From positions 434,001-498,000 of the forward strand of contig NW_027272339.1 of NCBI RefSeq assembly GCF_040938485.1: a stretch of DNA of 64,000 bases, given 5' to 3'. The DNA is from Diadema antillarum (Eukaryota). Below the pieces are notes generated by a model. The model was not told where the DNA came from, ran no database searches, and was given only the letters and a program-made list of their open reading frames with translations. Each line of letters begins with the position of its first letter. Position 1 is the first letter of the stretch. Both the position numbers and the translations under genes were made by a program. Of this stretch, positions 25,470 through 39,905 are shown in pieces.

Positions 25470-25510
25470 GGAGAGAGAGAGGGAGGGAGAGAGAGAGAGA
25501 GAGAGACAGA

Positions 25511-26220
25511 AGTAGTATAGGTGTACGTATAGCGTCATAAAAATATGATTCATATTTCTATTGTTCTAGAACAAAAGAAATATGAAAAGACAAAAGAATT
25601 ATGAATTATGAAATATGGATTATGATATGATTTATGATAAACAGATGGATTATGATATGAATTATGATAAAAATATGGATTATGATATGATTTATGATAA
25701 AAAGATGGATTATGATATGGATTATGATAAATCGATGAATTATGATAATAGATATGAATTATGGATATTTGCATAACAATAGAAATAGGAAAGAACAAAA
25801 GAATGTATGAAATATGAAAAATGAAAGATGAATATTCATGAGATATGAATTATAGATATTGACGATGGATGATGATTATGAAATATGAATATTTATGGAT
25901 CGATATGAAATATGAAGAATGAATTATGAAAAATATGCTATTGTTTTAAGAATCCGCGTCATTGTTTCATCATATTCTTTTGTTCTCACATCGAGAGATA
26001 TTTTCGAAGGCAATGGTCGAAATGGTCATAATGACGATTGCAATCGTATGCATGACATTTGTTTGATTTGATGACGTCACTCCGACAAGTTCGGACCTGT
26101 CCTCTGACCGACGCTCGCCCGATCGAAAACAAAAGAACTTTAAAAAACGAAGAAATACATAAAAATGGGGGCGTGTCCTCTGACCGACGCTTGCGCAATG
26201 CTTGCGCAATCGAAGACAAA
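25511..26220 (+). repeat. Polinton left TIR (~710 bp)
   Basis: Reverse complement of 38898-39606 with scattered substitutions; contains ~27-bp AT-rich tandem repeats (~25610-25750) and GTCCTCTGACCGACGC boxes. Confidence 0.95.
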
Positions 26221-26663
26221 AGTCAGGGCGTGTCCACTGACCAACGCTCGGGGACTTAAAGACAAAAGACTGGAAAAACAAAGAAATACATAAGACTGGA
26301 CCTCAAGTTCACGATAAGTTCGGACTTGTCCTCAGACCGACGCTCGCACACTCAAAGACAAAAGACTAGAAAAACAAAGAAATACATAAGACTGGACCTC
26401 AAGTTCACGATAAGTTCGGACTTGTCCTCTGACCCACGCTTGTACGCGAGCGAAGACAAAAGAATTTTTAAATAAAGAAATACATAAACTGGACCTGGAG
26501 CCAGTGACGGGTTCGGACTCGTCCTGCATAAAACAATAAATGCCTCATACATATTCAAAGAGATGGTGGCGTCCTTTGGAAAGCAAAAGAATAAAAACTC
26601 GAAGAACATGCGAGAGGGACACATTTCAATTTGAAACCTTCCGAGAGCATCACATGTTACAGA

Positions 26664-27577
26664 ATGTCTCAGCCGAACATCGCCAACACCTGGTGTCCCG
26701 AAATGCAGAGGACGGTGGAGAAGGTGGACTTGCTGATGTTGACGGAGTATCTAACTCTCATCGAAGTCTTGAAACGGGTGCAAAACGTGCCAGATTCTCC
26801 AATAGACGGTACTCCCGAAGATCCACAGCGCAAAGTGTTCCAGGCGGTTCATCATTTGGACCCAATGACTGTGGAGAGAGTGTACCCTTACGTTGGCAGG
26901 GTGCTCTGGATGAGACCAGATCTCGTCGAGTGCGGTTTTTTCCTGGAGTACATCAAATTTATTCTGAGGGGAGAGACTCAACAACAGCTGGAACAAAGAA
27001 GAGTCAACATAGGGAGACACGTGGAGGGGATAGAGGCCGCTGTGAGAGTGGTCTACAGGGCCTTGGGGCTCGAGACCGGCCTGCCCGACATCGTCTTGAC
27101 GGACCCTCAGTGGAACGTGCTTTAGACGAACGACTGCTATTAACGGTGATAAAGGACACATTTCCTTCCGACTTTCACGCCGTAGACACCGAGACAATCT
27201 TACGCGCATGTCGGACAATTGCAAGCGAGGAACAATTTTCCCGTGTGCGACGAATCAAGCTTCGAGGCAATGAGAGGTTCGACGATTGTATAGAGGCCCT
27301 GCTCAAAAATTGTATAGAGAACCCCAATCATCCCAACAAGTACAAACGTTCGCTGATGGCTCTATGCTATTTTGTCAACATCTACCAATATGCCTGCATA
27401 CCGGACGAGCGGAAAGAGGAATTTCGCGCGCAATTCGTGGAAGGACTCAAACGCTACAAAGTGCGCTGGTCGGAACACGCTCCGAAAATGACTGTTGGAC
27501 TAATGTCGCGATACGTTTTACATTTTTGTCTGTATATGTTGTATAATGTATGGAATGTAGATGTTAATAGAATGTGA
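26664..27577 (+). pseudogene. Polinton accessory gene of unknown function (~304 aa), split by a 1-nt frameshift near 27120
   Basis: The globular-looking frame 26664-27125 (MSQPNIANTW...DPQWNVL*) continues in the -1 frame (LDERLLLTVIKDTFP...NVDVNRM*). Adding one T to the CTTTAG run gives ...AAC GTG CTT TTA GAC GAA (NVLLDE) and one continuous ORF. Confidence 0.6.
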
Positions 27578-27764
27578 ATTGATTCAAGCAACGAAATTCG
27601 CTGCACTGTGTGTATGCGTGTACAATAAATGATGCGTTTCATTTTCAAATGATTTTTTTTACTCGTTACCTTGTCTATCATTGATGCCTTTTATGTCATT
27701 GCAACGTGAAAGGAATGCCATTTCTGATGTTTGCTTCTGCAGTGTGTGGTTGCTGAGACGAATA

Positions 27765-36882: not shown

Positions 36883-37119
36883 TCAAGCGCCCGCGAAAGA
36901 ACTGACATCGGGGATAACGTCAGTTTTATTTAAGGAAAAATCAAACCCATCCGTTCCATTTGACAAATGGGCATCTCTAGTGAGCAAAGACTCGAGATAA
37001 AACAATAGAAAGAAGAGAAATACAAAAAGCGCCAAACAAAATACATTTGTACCAGCATTGGTACTTTTCAGTACATTTCTGAGCACTGTGGACATATATG
37101 ATGCGCGCGACTTATCCAT
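36883..37119 (-). CDS. Possible small membrane protein (78 aa)
   Basis: ATG start, one strongly hydrophobic segment (FCLALFVFLFFLLFYL) and two downstream NxT sequons; no recognisable homology; could be a chance ORF in A-rich DNA. Confidence 0.3.
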   Translation of the reverse strand: MDKSRASYMSTVLRNVLKSTNAGTNVFCLALFVFLFFLLFYLESLLTRDAHLSNGTDGFDFSLNKTDVIPDVSSFAGA

Positions 37120-37231
37120 GATTTCCTAGCAACGACAATGCCAGCGGTAGGTACAGAGCTGATGAGAAAGTACCACCTTCTGCGACAATGTATAAACAGC
37201 GAATGATTGGCAATTAGACACATTGAGGTCT

Positions 37232-38897
37232 TTATAAGCGAGGAATGTCCGCGTGTCCATAAGGCAGTGTCGTGCCACCTGGTAATCTAACTCGTTTCGT
37301 GAAGACTACCCTGTAGTCTTTTTTTCTCTCGGAAGTGTACACGGACTTGCTTTTTACGTCTCTGAGAATTCTATTTTCCACAATAGTCTTCAGACATCCC
37401 GGTTCACCTTGTATCAATTCGCGCATAGAGTCATGGTTTATAACGAGGGAGTTTGCCTCGTTCAAGGTAAATCCACGCACCTTACACACGGTGTTGCCTT
37501 TGTTGGTGCGATAACTATAGTTCTTAGGACCACCGCAAAGCCAGGTTTGAATGAACTCGCCTTCACCAAGTTCATCCGTCAAGTCACCAACGAAATCGCC
37601 GGTTTTGGGGTCGTGATGTTGTACTGTTGGGTCTGTTCTAAAGACTACACTATCAGTGTCGTAATACAAGACCCTATCGTTCAGCCTCTGCAAGACAGAA
37701 TACAATTTCAGTCGCGCCAATGCCGTCGTGAAACTGGCTATTATGATATTTGTGTTGACGTTGTGGTCCACGAAGCCTTCGGCTTGATTGAAATGAATTT
37801 CTACCATGTCGTCGTTTAGAACGAGAATGTCTTGTAATTCGATAGTGCGATCCTTTAAGAAATCTAACAACTCAGCGCTGGTTTTGACAAAGCGCGTTTG
37901 TTTCAGATTTGGTCTCTCAGCAAATTTCCCCCACAGCACATTAACAATGCCCTTGGCAATGGCGCGTAAACCGGGGTTTTTCGCGATGTTTTTAGAGTCT
38001 AATTGAATTCCCTCATGGGCCAAATAATCTCGAATGTATTTTTCACGTTCTTCTTCAGTACTGGCATGGGCGGGGTAGTCTGAGGCTTCCTGCTTTATTT
38101 TCATAAAGCTGTCTATATACTGCGCAAACAGTCCTCCCGTTCTTGTTTTGGGATCGTACACTGTATACCTGTCAAAGTGCCATACTTCGATCATTCGGAG
38201 TTGTGTATACCCCATCTCTACAGCTTTTTTCAGTTCCTCCGATACCCACACGCCTTCTAACTCACGCTCCCTATCTGCGTGCTTGCAGGGCCCCTGATTC
38301 AAGGTGTCTGCACAGGTCCTGCATAGAGGGAAAGTAAGTTTACCCCCTGAGCGATGGGGGAGCACTGGATGAAACAGACGTCTAGGAGGTAATATTTTAC
38401 ATTTGACGAGTCCAAAAATTCGAGACAGTGAAGGGAAGTTAGAATAGATAATTCTGGGATGGCCGACAGGATATTTGCCGAACTTATTGATAAAGGGATA
38501 AAGACTGGTGAAATCATAGTAAAGGATTTTTTCTTCGGGCTTCGCCTCGTAGAAGAGCGAACACCCTCCAGTTCTCCCGCCATAGAACGAGTCACGTGGA
38601 TTTAATTGTTGATTAAAAGCCATTTGAAGGTGTGCAATGTGTGGATGTACATATGTTCACCTCTGTTGGCTTCATTATCAATGTTTCGTGACATTCGTCG
38701 CAAACAAATTTGGAGCACAGGAACGCCGATGGATTGGCAACCACGTCGTAATGACGGTCTGACAGATAGAGATAAATGGTATCAGAAGCCTGAGGACCGC
38801 TGTAGATTAACGCTTCTTCATATCGTCCTCTATAAATGACCAGTTTGTACTTTGGAAGTAGCACTTTTTGAAAGGAGTCATACTGTGAATGATCTAC
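37232..38897 (-). pseudogene. polB: Protein-primed family B DNA polymerase (pPolB), internally and 5'-deleted
   Basis: Polymerase half open at 37232-~38610: LNPRDSFYGGRT, YYDFTSLYP, YPVGHP, LPHRSGGKLTFPLC, K...N..WGKF, LYYDTDS, GPKNY, KGF/RGF, PYG. A short N-terminal remnant (FQKVLLPKY...IYLYLSDRHYDVV...F.C..C) at 38613-38897 is in another frame and directly abuts the TIR. No Exo I/II/III motifs lie between them. Confidence 0.9.
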
Positions 38898-39606
38898 TTT
38901 GTCTTCGATTGCGCAAGCATTGCGCAAGCGTCGGTCAGAGGACACGCCCCCATTTTTATGTATTTCTTTGTTTTTTAAAGTTCTTTTGTTTTCGATCGGG
39001 CGAGCGTCGGTCAGAGGACAGGTCCGAACTTGTCGGAGTGACGTCATCAAACAAACAAATGTCATGAATACGATTGCAATCGTCATTATGACCATTTCGA
39101 CCATTGCCTTCGAAAATATCTCTCGATGTGAGAACAAAAGAATATGATGAAACAATGACGCGGATTCTTAAAACAATAGCATATTTTTCATAATTCATTC
39201 TTCATACTTCATATCGATCCATAAATATTCATATTTCATAATCATCATTCATCGTTCATATCTATAATTCATATCTCATGAATATTCATCTTTCATTTTT
39301 CATATTTCATACATTCTTTTGTTCTTTCCAATTTCTATTGTTATGCAAATATCCATAATTCATATCTATTATCATAATTCATCGATTTATCATAATTCAT
39401 ATCGTAATCCATCTTTTTATCATAAATCATATCATAATCCATATTTTTATCATAAATCATATCATAATCCATCTTTTTATCATAAATCATATCATAATCC
39501 ATATTTCATAATTCATAATTCTTTTGTCTTTTCATATTTCTTTTGTTCTAGAACAATAGAAATATGAATCATATTTTTATGACGCTATACGTACACCTAT
39601 ACTACT
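38898..39606 (-). repeat. Polinton right TIR (~709 bp)
   Basis: Reverse complement of 25511-26220, ending ...TATACTACT followed by TSD GACAGA. Confidence 0.95.
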
Positions 39607-39905
39607 GACAGAGAGAGTTATTATCATTATTCTTCTTCTTCTTATTCTTATTATTATTATTATCATCATCATCACTATTACTATTATTTATTCGTCATTT
39701 CAGACATATCATGTACATGGGTAGATACAACACATATGATAAGAATGCAAATAGCGTGACTCAATTTTGTTAACAAGGTCCCATGCACACCACGCGCTCT
39801 GTAAAGTCTCTTGTGATAGCCACGTAAAGAAAACTCAGCTGCCATTATTCCATCGGGTTCACTCTGCGACCACACACCTGCATGTTAACTCCAGCTCTCA
39901 GCACG

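What the first reader, a model, noticed from the sequence alone, without database searches (positions are those of the whole stretch)
25505..39612. End-to-end Polinton/adintovirus provirus with perfect TSD and intact virion module
Seen: GACAGA|AGTAGT...ACTACT|GACAGA, ~710-bp TIRs, and uninterrupted ORFs for integrase, minor capsid, core protein, major capsid and protease (+ strand) converging on the ATPase block (- strand). Established: 6-bp TSD, AG...CT termini with a short terminal repeat for protein-primed slide-back, and this gene set define Polintons; capsid genes imply a virus stage. Inference: a recent insertion in a lineage whose exogenous virus may still circulate.
Basis: partly seen in the sequence, partly recalled or inferred. 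Interest (0 to 1): 0.7.

Follow-up and report, generated by a model that had tools for sequence, protein, structure and literature searches.

The report
Polymerase-deleted Polinton from a young swarm
This is a virus-like Polinton element inserted on only one of the host's two chromosome copies, with intact capsid and integrase genes but most of its DNA polymerase gene deleted, so it likely needs sister copies to move; it is one of at least 43 nearly identical, mostly rearranged copies in what is likely a sea urchin genome.

Summary
The ends, 6-bp TSD, 710-bp TIRs and the intact integrase, capsid, protease and ATPase genes are real; both capsid folds were confirmed by structure search. It is young: the other haplotype carries the empty site, and its genes differ privately from sister copies at about one base. 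It belongs to a family of at least 43 insertion sites, 99-100% identical. Only 13 of 43 keep the whole polymerase and 6 of 43 keep both modules; 15 have one end extended by an inverted copy of the other arm, and copies are mosaics of two variants. Template switching in a shared replicating pool (defective-interfering-like genomes) fits, but one same-site allele pair differs at 12 shared variants, so in-place conversion or assembly mixing contributes. A run from a second organism holds the virion block at 0.8% divergence against 7.6% in host flank, a hint of cross-species transfer. No evidence on free virus or expression was obtained. Verdict: defective copy of a recently active Polinton family; known kind, good test system.

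The parts
25505..25510 (.). left target-site duplication GACAGA, inside a GA-rich microsatellite
   Evidence: single copy in the empty allele
25511..26222 (+). left terminal inverted repeat, starts (AGT)2, holds 30-bp tandem units
26223..26520 (+). sub-terminal ~90-bp repeats of the left arm
26664..27125 (+). accessory ORF1a, 153 aa, no Pfam family
   Evidence: dN/dS 0.095 against sister family; conserved in a 50%-identical family
27110..27577 (+). accessory ORF1b, overlaps the ORF1a stop, no ATG of its own near the overlap (open frame runs from 26540)
   Evidence: dN/dS 0.20; same overlap in sister family; no Pfam
27765..28856 (+). retroviral-type integrase with C-terminal chromodomain, intact
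   Evidence: rve 8e-14, Chromo 4e-7; DDE motifs
28924..29685 (+). minor capsid protein (penton), intact
   Evidence: mavirus penton E 1e-11
29721..30161 (+). basic core-like protein at the PW position, intact (name by position only)
   Evidence: gene order in PMC8097293
30214..31545 (+). double jelly-roll major capsid protein, intact
   Evidence: Sputnik MCP E 4e-15, TM 0.61
31589..32110 (+). adenain-type protease, intact
   Evidence: E 2.6e-4, just under cut-off; His/Asp/Cys motifs
32356..33780 (.). tandem duplication of a ~712-bp non-coding AT-rich unit, 99.3% alike; other copies fetched show one unit
33934..34029 (.). (CGAAATGA)n array in the central spacer
34826..35593 (-). 255-aa ORF at the PZ position, intact (name by position only)
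35621..35965 (-). 114-aa ORF at the PM position, intact; faint Gasdermin_C score (E 0.059, far below cut-off)
36005..36661 (-). A32/FtsK-type packaging ATPase, intact
   Evidence: Pox_A32 2e-5; Walker motifs
37232..38652 (-). pPolB remnant 1: polymerase (palm) part only, about the last third of the 1502-aa family protein
38653..38680 (-). 28-nt filler; 25 nt match the PC4-like gene region of sister copies
38681..38899 (-). pPolB remnant 2: 219-bp internal piece of the N-terminal region, other frame
38898..39606 (-). right terminal inverted repeat, ends (ACT)2, joined directly to remnant 2 over 2 nt of microhomology
39607..39612 (.). right target-site duplication GACAGA

Best explanation
This is a young, heterozygous, integrase-made insertion of a Polinton (Maverick/adintovirus-type) element whose virion and integrase genes are intact but whose protein-primed polymerase is mostly deleted, so it likely depends on polymerase from sister copies to replicate. 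The family likely works as known Polintons are thought to: pPolB primes at the (AGT)2 ends and copies the linear genome by strand displacement, integrase inserts it with a 6-bp TSD, and the capsid module is predicted to package it (inferred from family knowledge). The many deletions, arm duplications and mosaic haplotypes likely come from template switching at 0-3-nt microhomologies between TIR-bearing molecules of two slightly different variants, in part while the element replicates and in part after insertion (inferred; timing not shown).
For: Ends, TSD, genes. Polymerase loss: right arm is TIR, 219-bp pPolB piece, 28-nt filler, C-terminal third; terminal-protein region, predicted vOTU cysteine and all three exonuclease motifs lie in the lost parts (domain order from PMC11161782). 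Youth: empty allele; 33 of 40 end pairs have an exact 6-bp TSD and 3 more have one plus an extra 3-4-nt terminal unit; median 2 singleton changes per 6.7-kb left arm in 26 copies. Helpers exist: whole pPolB DNA in 13 of 43 sites, 11 near-identical hits with open frames of 1505-1506 aa. Rearrangement load: both modules complete in only 6 of 43, virion module only 23, polymerase only 7, neither 7; right end extended by 1-4 kb of left arm at 15 of 43 sites, left end extended by right arm at 4; one full palindrome. 28 of 33 junctions listed overlap by 3 nt or less, mean 2.3 against 0.7 at random. Mosaics: 440 of 561 site pairs show four gametes, r2 falls from 0.31 to 0.07 with distance; 10 of the 11 differences between this copy's own TIRs are family-wide variants. 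Contig depth over the pPolB N-half is 0.61, 0.62 and 0.48 of the ATPase block in 3 of the 4 runs laid (2 studies; depth is only a hint).
Against: Timing is open. Of 3 same-site allele pairs compared, one differs at 12 of 101 family-polymorphic sites and by a 167-bp deletion, which cannot predate insertion: in-place conversion or assembly mixing is real for at least that pair; the other two pairs differ at none of 77 and 76 such sites. No polymerase-deleting junction recurs at two clearly different sites among those called, so trans-mobilisation of a defective form is not shown in this assembly. Whether this copy's own junctions are spanned by raw reads was not seen (one search shows only the longest contigs). 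The ATPase block was fetched for few copies; one 'polymerase only' call (C872) is uncertain because its middle was not fetched. Searches scored 40 of 72 and 92 of 254 candidates, so counts are lower bounds and sampling was through MCP and pPolB C-terminus hits.
Confidence: 0.7

Rival explanations
1. The copy inserted whole and was then broken in place: long TIRs and many near-identical chromosomal copies promote breaks that are repaired by copying from other copies (gene conversion, synthesis-dependent annealing, microhomology joins). No free replicating pool or helper relation is needed.
For: One same-site allele pair differs at 12 shared variants plus a deletion with 8-nt microhomology; internal events leave TSDs intact; this copy has a private 712-bp duplication; no deletion junction recurs at two sites.
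Against: 37 of 43 sites lack one module or both while carrying only about 2 private changes per 6.7 kb, a ratio of large rearrangements to point changes that is high for resting DNA (my judgement, no host control run); two of three allele pairs, one with a complex end swap, are alike at all shared sites; one contig joint from TIR to polymerase stands at depth 17 of 56 in run X4.
Confidence: 0.4
2. One reading: a complete provirus of a virus that still circulates outside the genome.
For: Intact virion module; purifying selection on all virion genes against a sister family, dN 0.17-0.33 with synonymous sites near or at saturation; heterozygous insertion; 0.8% divergence of the virion block in a second organism against 7.6% in host flank.
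Against: This copy is not complete. Element-to-flank contig depth of about 20-30 in two DNA runs is about what the integrated copies predict, with no sign of large excess (weak).
Confidence: 0.3
3. The mosaics and rearrangements are largely assembly artefacts from collapsing or mixing reads of near-identical 17-kb repeats.
For: Interior haplotype switches between two same-site alleles; homopolymer frameshifts in a sister family look like consensus errors.
Against: TIR haplotypes lie within 0.7 kb of unique flank and are identical in the same-site pair; junctions are distinct per site and flanked by exact TSDs; short-read contig depth in other samples also drops over the polymerase N-half.
Confidence: 0.15

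Closest known systems
Vertebrate-type Mavericks/Polintons (PMC8097293; passages and the architecture section read)
   Same: (AGT)2//(ACT)2 ends, 6-bp TSD, TIRs, two convergent modules int-mcp-pw-MCP-pro and ppolb-atp-pm-pz, accessory ORFs next to the ends, purifying selection on core genes.
   Different: This copy lacks most of pPolB through deletion. There, defective copies are described as decayed by stops and frameshifts; here they are 99-100% identical and broken by deletions, arm duplications and end swaps.
Adintoviruses (PMC8502044; passages and section 3.1 read)
   Same: Adenain, hexon, penton, FtsK, rve integrase, OTU-bearing PolB in sister copies (motif level); small basic ORFs where Cupiennin and GasderminX lie.
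   Different: Alpha or Beta class not tested by phylogeny; no free-ended genome could be examined.
Butterfly polintons lacking polB or with gene-containing TIRs (bioRxiv 10.1101/2025.02.07.637071; passages read)
   Same: polB-less copies beside complete relatives, TIRs that hold genes, recent horizontal transfer.
   Different: There polB loss goes with LINE or LTR cargo and was amplified; here loss is by many independent junctions without cargo, and extended TIRs vary from copy to copy (1-4 kb).
Defective-interfering and copy-back genomes of protein-primed linear replicons such as adenovirus (recalled; searches gave no paper on it)
   Same: Both origins kept, an essential gene lost, one end duplicated, palindromes.
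   Different: Origin during replication, helper-driven amplification and interference are not shown here.
Sea urchin Polinton MCPs annotated 'F54H12.2-like'
   Same: 72-86% identical proteins named from Diadema, Lytechinus and Strongylocentrotus; a 98%-identical partial hit is labelled Diadema antillarum.
   Different: Annotated as uncharacterised host genes; no paper on this family among the 11 listed (titles and abstract starts only).

Membership tests
Polinton/Maverick | TIRs with (AGT)2//(ACT)2 or (AG)3//(CT)3 ends | tested here: met
   motif definition
Polinton/Maverick | 6-bp target-site duplication | tested here: met
   GACAGA twice, once in the empty allele
Polinton/Maverick | retroviral-type integrase | tested here: met
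Polinton/Maverick (family level) | protein-primed family B polymerase | tested here: met
   PF03175 on a 1502-aa sister-copy protein, E 2e-45; whole gene DNA at 13 of 43 sites
Intact (autonomous) Maverick, this copy | uninterrupted pPolB ORF | tested here: not met
   only a C-terminal third and a 219-bp piece remain; filed as a deletion derivative, not as an intact member
Polinton/Maverick | double jelly-roll MCP and single jelly-roll penton | tested here: met
   (predicted models)
Polinton/Maverick | packaging ATPase and adenain protease | tested here: met
   (protease 0.1 bit under cut-off), motifs
Vertebrate-type Maverick | PW, PZ and PM genes | tested here: inconclusive
   ORFs at the right positions; homology to PW, PZ, PM not tested
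Adintovirus | PolB with N-terminal OTU domain | tested here: inconclusive
   Cys and His motifs in the sister-copy protein (labels are my reading); not folded; broken in this copy
Adintovirus | Alpha or Beta class by PolB and hexon clustering | not tested
   no reference set was at hand; BFVD search gave no close adintovirus hexon
Adintovirus | free linear genomes or virions | not testable with these tools
   only contigs were served
Defective-interfering genome | keeps both origins, lacks an essential trans-acting gene | tested here: met
Defective-interfering genome | amplified with a helper (same junction at several sites) | tested here: not met
   no such junction recurs at different sites; one depth-17 joint in run X4 is only a hint
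Defective-interfering genome | arises during replication and interferes with the helper | tested here: inconclusive
   for, against; interference not testable

The most novel reading that the evidence does not exclude
The genome holds a frozen snapshot of a replicating animal Polinton virus swarm: two variants co-replicated and recombined in the germline, threw off defective-interfering genomes (polymerase deletions, copy-back arms, palindromes) that were integrated beside their helpers, and the same virus recently crossed between two urchin species.
Probability: 0.3. Interest if true: 0.78.

Novelty: new member of a known kind. Interest (0 to 1): 0.5.

Why it matters
Animal Polintons are thought to be viruses, but PMC8097293 states that their particles had not been observed, and their replication is inferred from gene content. 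A family with dozens of 99-100% identical, likely unfixed copies, intact virion genes and a catalogue of template-switch junctions is a place where replication intermediates, free ends, particles and helper dependence can be looked for directly. The single copy flagged is ordinary and defective; the value lies in the family. If the cross-species hint holds, it adds a very recent marine host jump.

Tried and rejected
PDB sequence searches found nothing for MCP or pPolB (only chance PDZ scores). No RNA holder was listed: no evidence on expression either way. Run X19 (RNA is the tool's guess) shows 70-110-bp pieces with 0-3 differences over several genes but also a host repeat; not shown to be transcription. 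X5 covers genes and spacer at low depth and no flank; RNA and shallow DNA cannot be told apart. X14 and X16 hold short near-identical pieces; X14 also holds host repeat, so no free-virus claim. I first read this copy's right end as a copy of its left arm; one search shows a native right-end variant also matches the left arm to base 716, so it is a plain truncated right end. Four 885-aa pPolB frames in a sister family looked like an amplified defective form; of the four, three keep the near-full arm (two translated show frameshifts in low-complexity stretches) and one is a deletion, so rejected. ORF1b homologue search gave one hit; the Atlas gave no answer for ORF1a. Earlier-findings look-ups returned nothing. 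Literature searches for Polinton copy-back or defective-interfering genomes listed no paper devoted to it; only listings were seen, subscription papers are not covered, and no supplements were read.
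Full report
Observation. The element runs from 25511 to 39606 between two GACAGA copies, with AGTAGT and ACTACT ends. The TIRs align over 710 bp with 11 substitutions and one gap. On + lie two accessory ORFs, integrase, minor capsid, a basic core-like ORF, major capsid and protease; on - lie two small ORFs, the ATPase and a polymerase remnant. Pfam names the integrase, ATPase, polymerase remnant and, just under cut-off, the protease. Predicted models place the 443-aa protein with double jelly-roll capsids (Sputnik MCP, E 4e-15) and the 253-aa protein with mavirus and adenovirus pentons (E 1e-11). 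Gene order and end motif match the two-module plan of vertebrate Mavericks in PMC8097293 (section read). Named MCP relatives are from sea urchins, the nearest labelled Diadema, so the host is likely a Diadema urchin.

The polymerase is broken. Against a sister-copy right arm, this copy reads: TIR to base 710, a 219-bp piece from the N-terminal region of pPolB, a 28-nt filler of which 25 nt match the PC4-like gene region, then the last third of pPolB. Sister copies have a 1502-aa pPolB and a PC4-like ORF. [quoted passage not shown] The copy therefore cannot prime or copy itself (inference). It also has a 712-bp tandem duplication in its spacer that other fetched copies lack.

Age. Contig C930 carries both flanks at over 99% identity and a single GACAGA: the insertion is on one haplotype only. 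Over the genes compared, the copy has one private change. Against a sister family, all virion genes have dN of 0.17-0.33 with synonymous sites near or at saturation, so the capsid module has been kept by selection over a long time.

The family. Own-genome searches found 36 pPolB hits at 90% identity or more and 40 MCP hits at 98-100%, scoring 92 of 254 and 40 of 72 candidates. I analysed 43 distinct sites, leaving out four same-site duplicates and a few unresolved loci. Of 43 end pairs examined, 40 had both ends; 33 of 40 have an exact 6-bp TSD and three more have one beside an extra 3-4-nt terminal unit. Full-length ORF copies are mostly intact: integrase 38 of 39, mCP 35 of 36, MCP 32 of 36, protease 35 of 37 (counts are stretches, not sites). 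But by DNA presence the integrase-to-protease module is complete at 29 of 43 sites, pPolB at 13, both at 6, virion module only at 23, polymerase only at 7 (one uncertain), neither at 7 (ATPase block not fetched for most). At 15 sites the right end continues into 1-4 kb of inverted left arm, at 4 the left end continues into right arm, three of these have both ends exchanged, and one element is a palindrome. Junction overlaps are short: 28 of 33 that I listed (inserts and the shared native variant left out) are 3 nt or less, mean 2.3 against 0.7 for random pairs. Other Polinton families in this genome look less damaged: one has 1415-aa frames at 8 of 8 hits, another 1470-1472 aa at 18 of 23.

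Mosaics. Left arms fall into two variants and their mixtures: 440 of 561 informative site pairs show four gametes in 26 arms, r2 falls from 0.31 to 0.07 with distance, and the median arm has 2 singleton changes. Right arms show the same two variants with tighter linkage. Ten of the 11 differences between this copy's two TIRs are variants shared across the family, so TIR mismatch is no measure of age here.

Results against the free-pool reading. Three same-site allele pairs were compared. Two are alike at all 77 and 76 family-polymorphic sites covered. The third differs at 12 of 101 and by a 167-bp deletion; that must have arisen after insertion or in the assembly. No polymerase-deleting junction recurs at two different sites; the two contigs that share one look like the two halves of one palindromic site. 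So helper-driven spread of a defective form is plausible but not shown; bioRxiv 10.1101/2025.02.07.637071 (passages) reports polB-less polintons that stayed active in butterflies.

Other samples. Only contigs were served. In three DNA-type runs from two studies, depth over the pPolB N-half is 0.61, 0.62 and 0.48 of the ATPase block, and element depth is about 20-30 times flank depth in the two runs that cover the flank; the tool warns that depth is no copy number, so this is a hint that the deletions are real and shared in kind. Run X4 has a TIR-to-polymerase joint at depth 17 against 56. Run X7, a second coded organism, holds 3880 bp of the virion block with 31 differences (0.8%), its TIR at 3% and ORF1 at 3.5%, while its contig on the neighbouring host gene, intron included, has 81 differences in 1061 bp (7.6%) plus gaps. 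That suggests recent transfer between species, but it rests on one run and one flank contig whose orthology is not proven, coding DNA is compared with partly intronic DNA, and hybridisation would look alike. Cross-species transfer of Mavericks is reported in PMC8097293 and the preprint above.

Mechanism. Shown: integrase-type insertion with TSD, intact virion genes, loss of most of pPolB, heterozygosity, sister copies with whole pPolB, microhomology junctions and mosaic haplotypes. Inferred: protein-primed strand-displacement replication, supply of polymerase in trans, template switching as source of the junctions. Open: whether rearrangement happened before or after insertion (evidence for both), and whether particles form.

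Comparison and verdict. It works like a non-autonomous Polinton and belongs to a Polinton family; it fails the test for an intact Maverick and does not meet the amplification test for a defective-interfering genome. Papers seen: passages of PMC11161782, PMC8502044 (plus section 3.1), PMC8097293 (plus the architecture section), 10.1101/2023.08.22.554363, 10.1101/2024.01.15.575659 and 10.1101/2025.02.07.637071; no supplements. Searches listed no study of this family or of Polinton copy-back genomes, judged from listings only. New member of a known kind; interest 0.5, for the family as a test system and not for this copy.

Noticed in passing
window 17132-21754: LTR retrotransposon with near-identical LTRs (99-100% over the 300-bp blocks shown) and a 731-aa gag-protease frame on -, no pol frame listed; likely a young non-autonomous gypsy-type copy.
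   Followed up: partly
window 22568-24500 and 39882-43319: The insertion lies between two tandem paralogues of a two-exon sulfotransferase-like gene, about 275 bp upstream of the second one's start.
   Followed up: partly
window 24620-25300: Very high-copy short repeat next to the insertion site (contig depth in the tens of thousands in run X7).
   Followed up: no
window 27095-27130: ORF1a's stop overlaps the start of conserved ORF1b, which has no nearby ATG; the sequence around the overlap is kept in a sister family, so a frameshift, splice or non-AUG start is possible.
   Followed up: partly
G000 C604 about 2216000-2232000 (L068, L092, L093): A fully palindromic copy with two MCP genes back to back, no polymerase or integrase, and an exact TSD.
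   Followed up: partly
L029, L034, L038 ends: Three copies have an extra AGT or AGTA between TSD and terminus, as slide-back priming might leave.
   Followed up: no
G000, one search hits at 44-66% identity: At least four other Polinton families with many identical copies live in this genome; one MCP relative sits 1.3 kb outside a copy of the studied family (L065).
   Followed up: partly
window 13149-13634: Exon on - of a membrane-anchored protein with a trefoil-like cysteine pattern, resembling an alpha-glucosidase N-terminus (recalled, one search shows the frame only).
   Followed up: no
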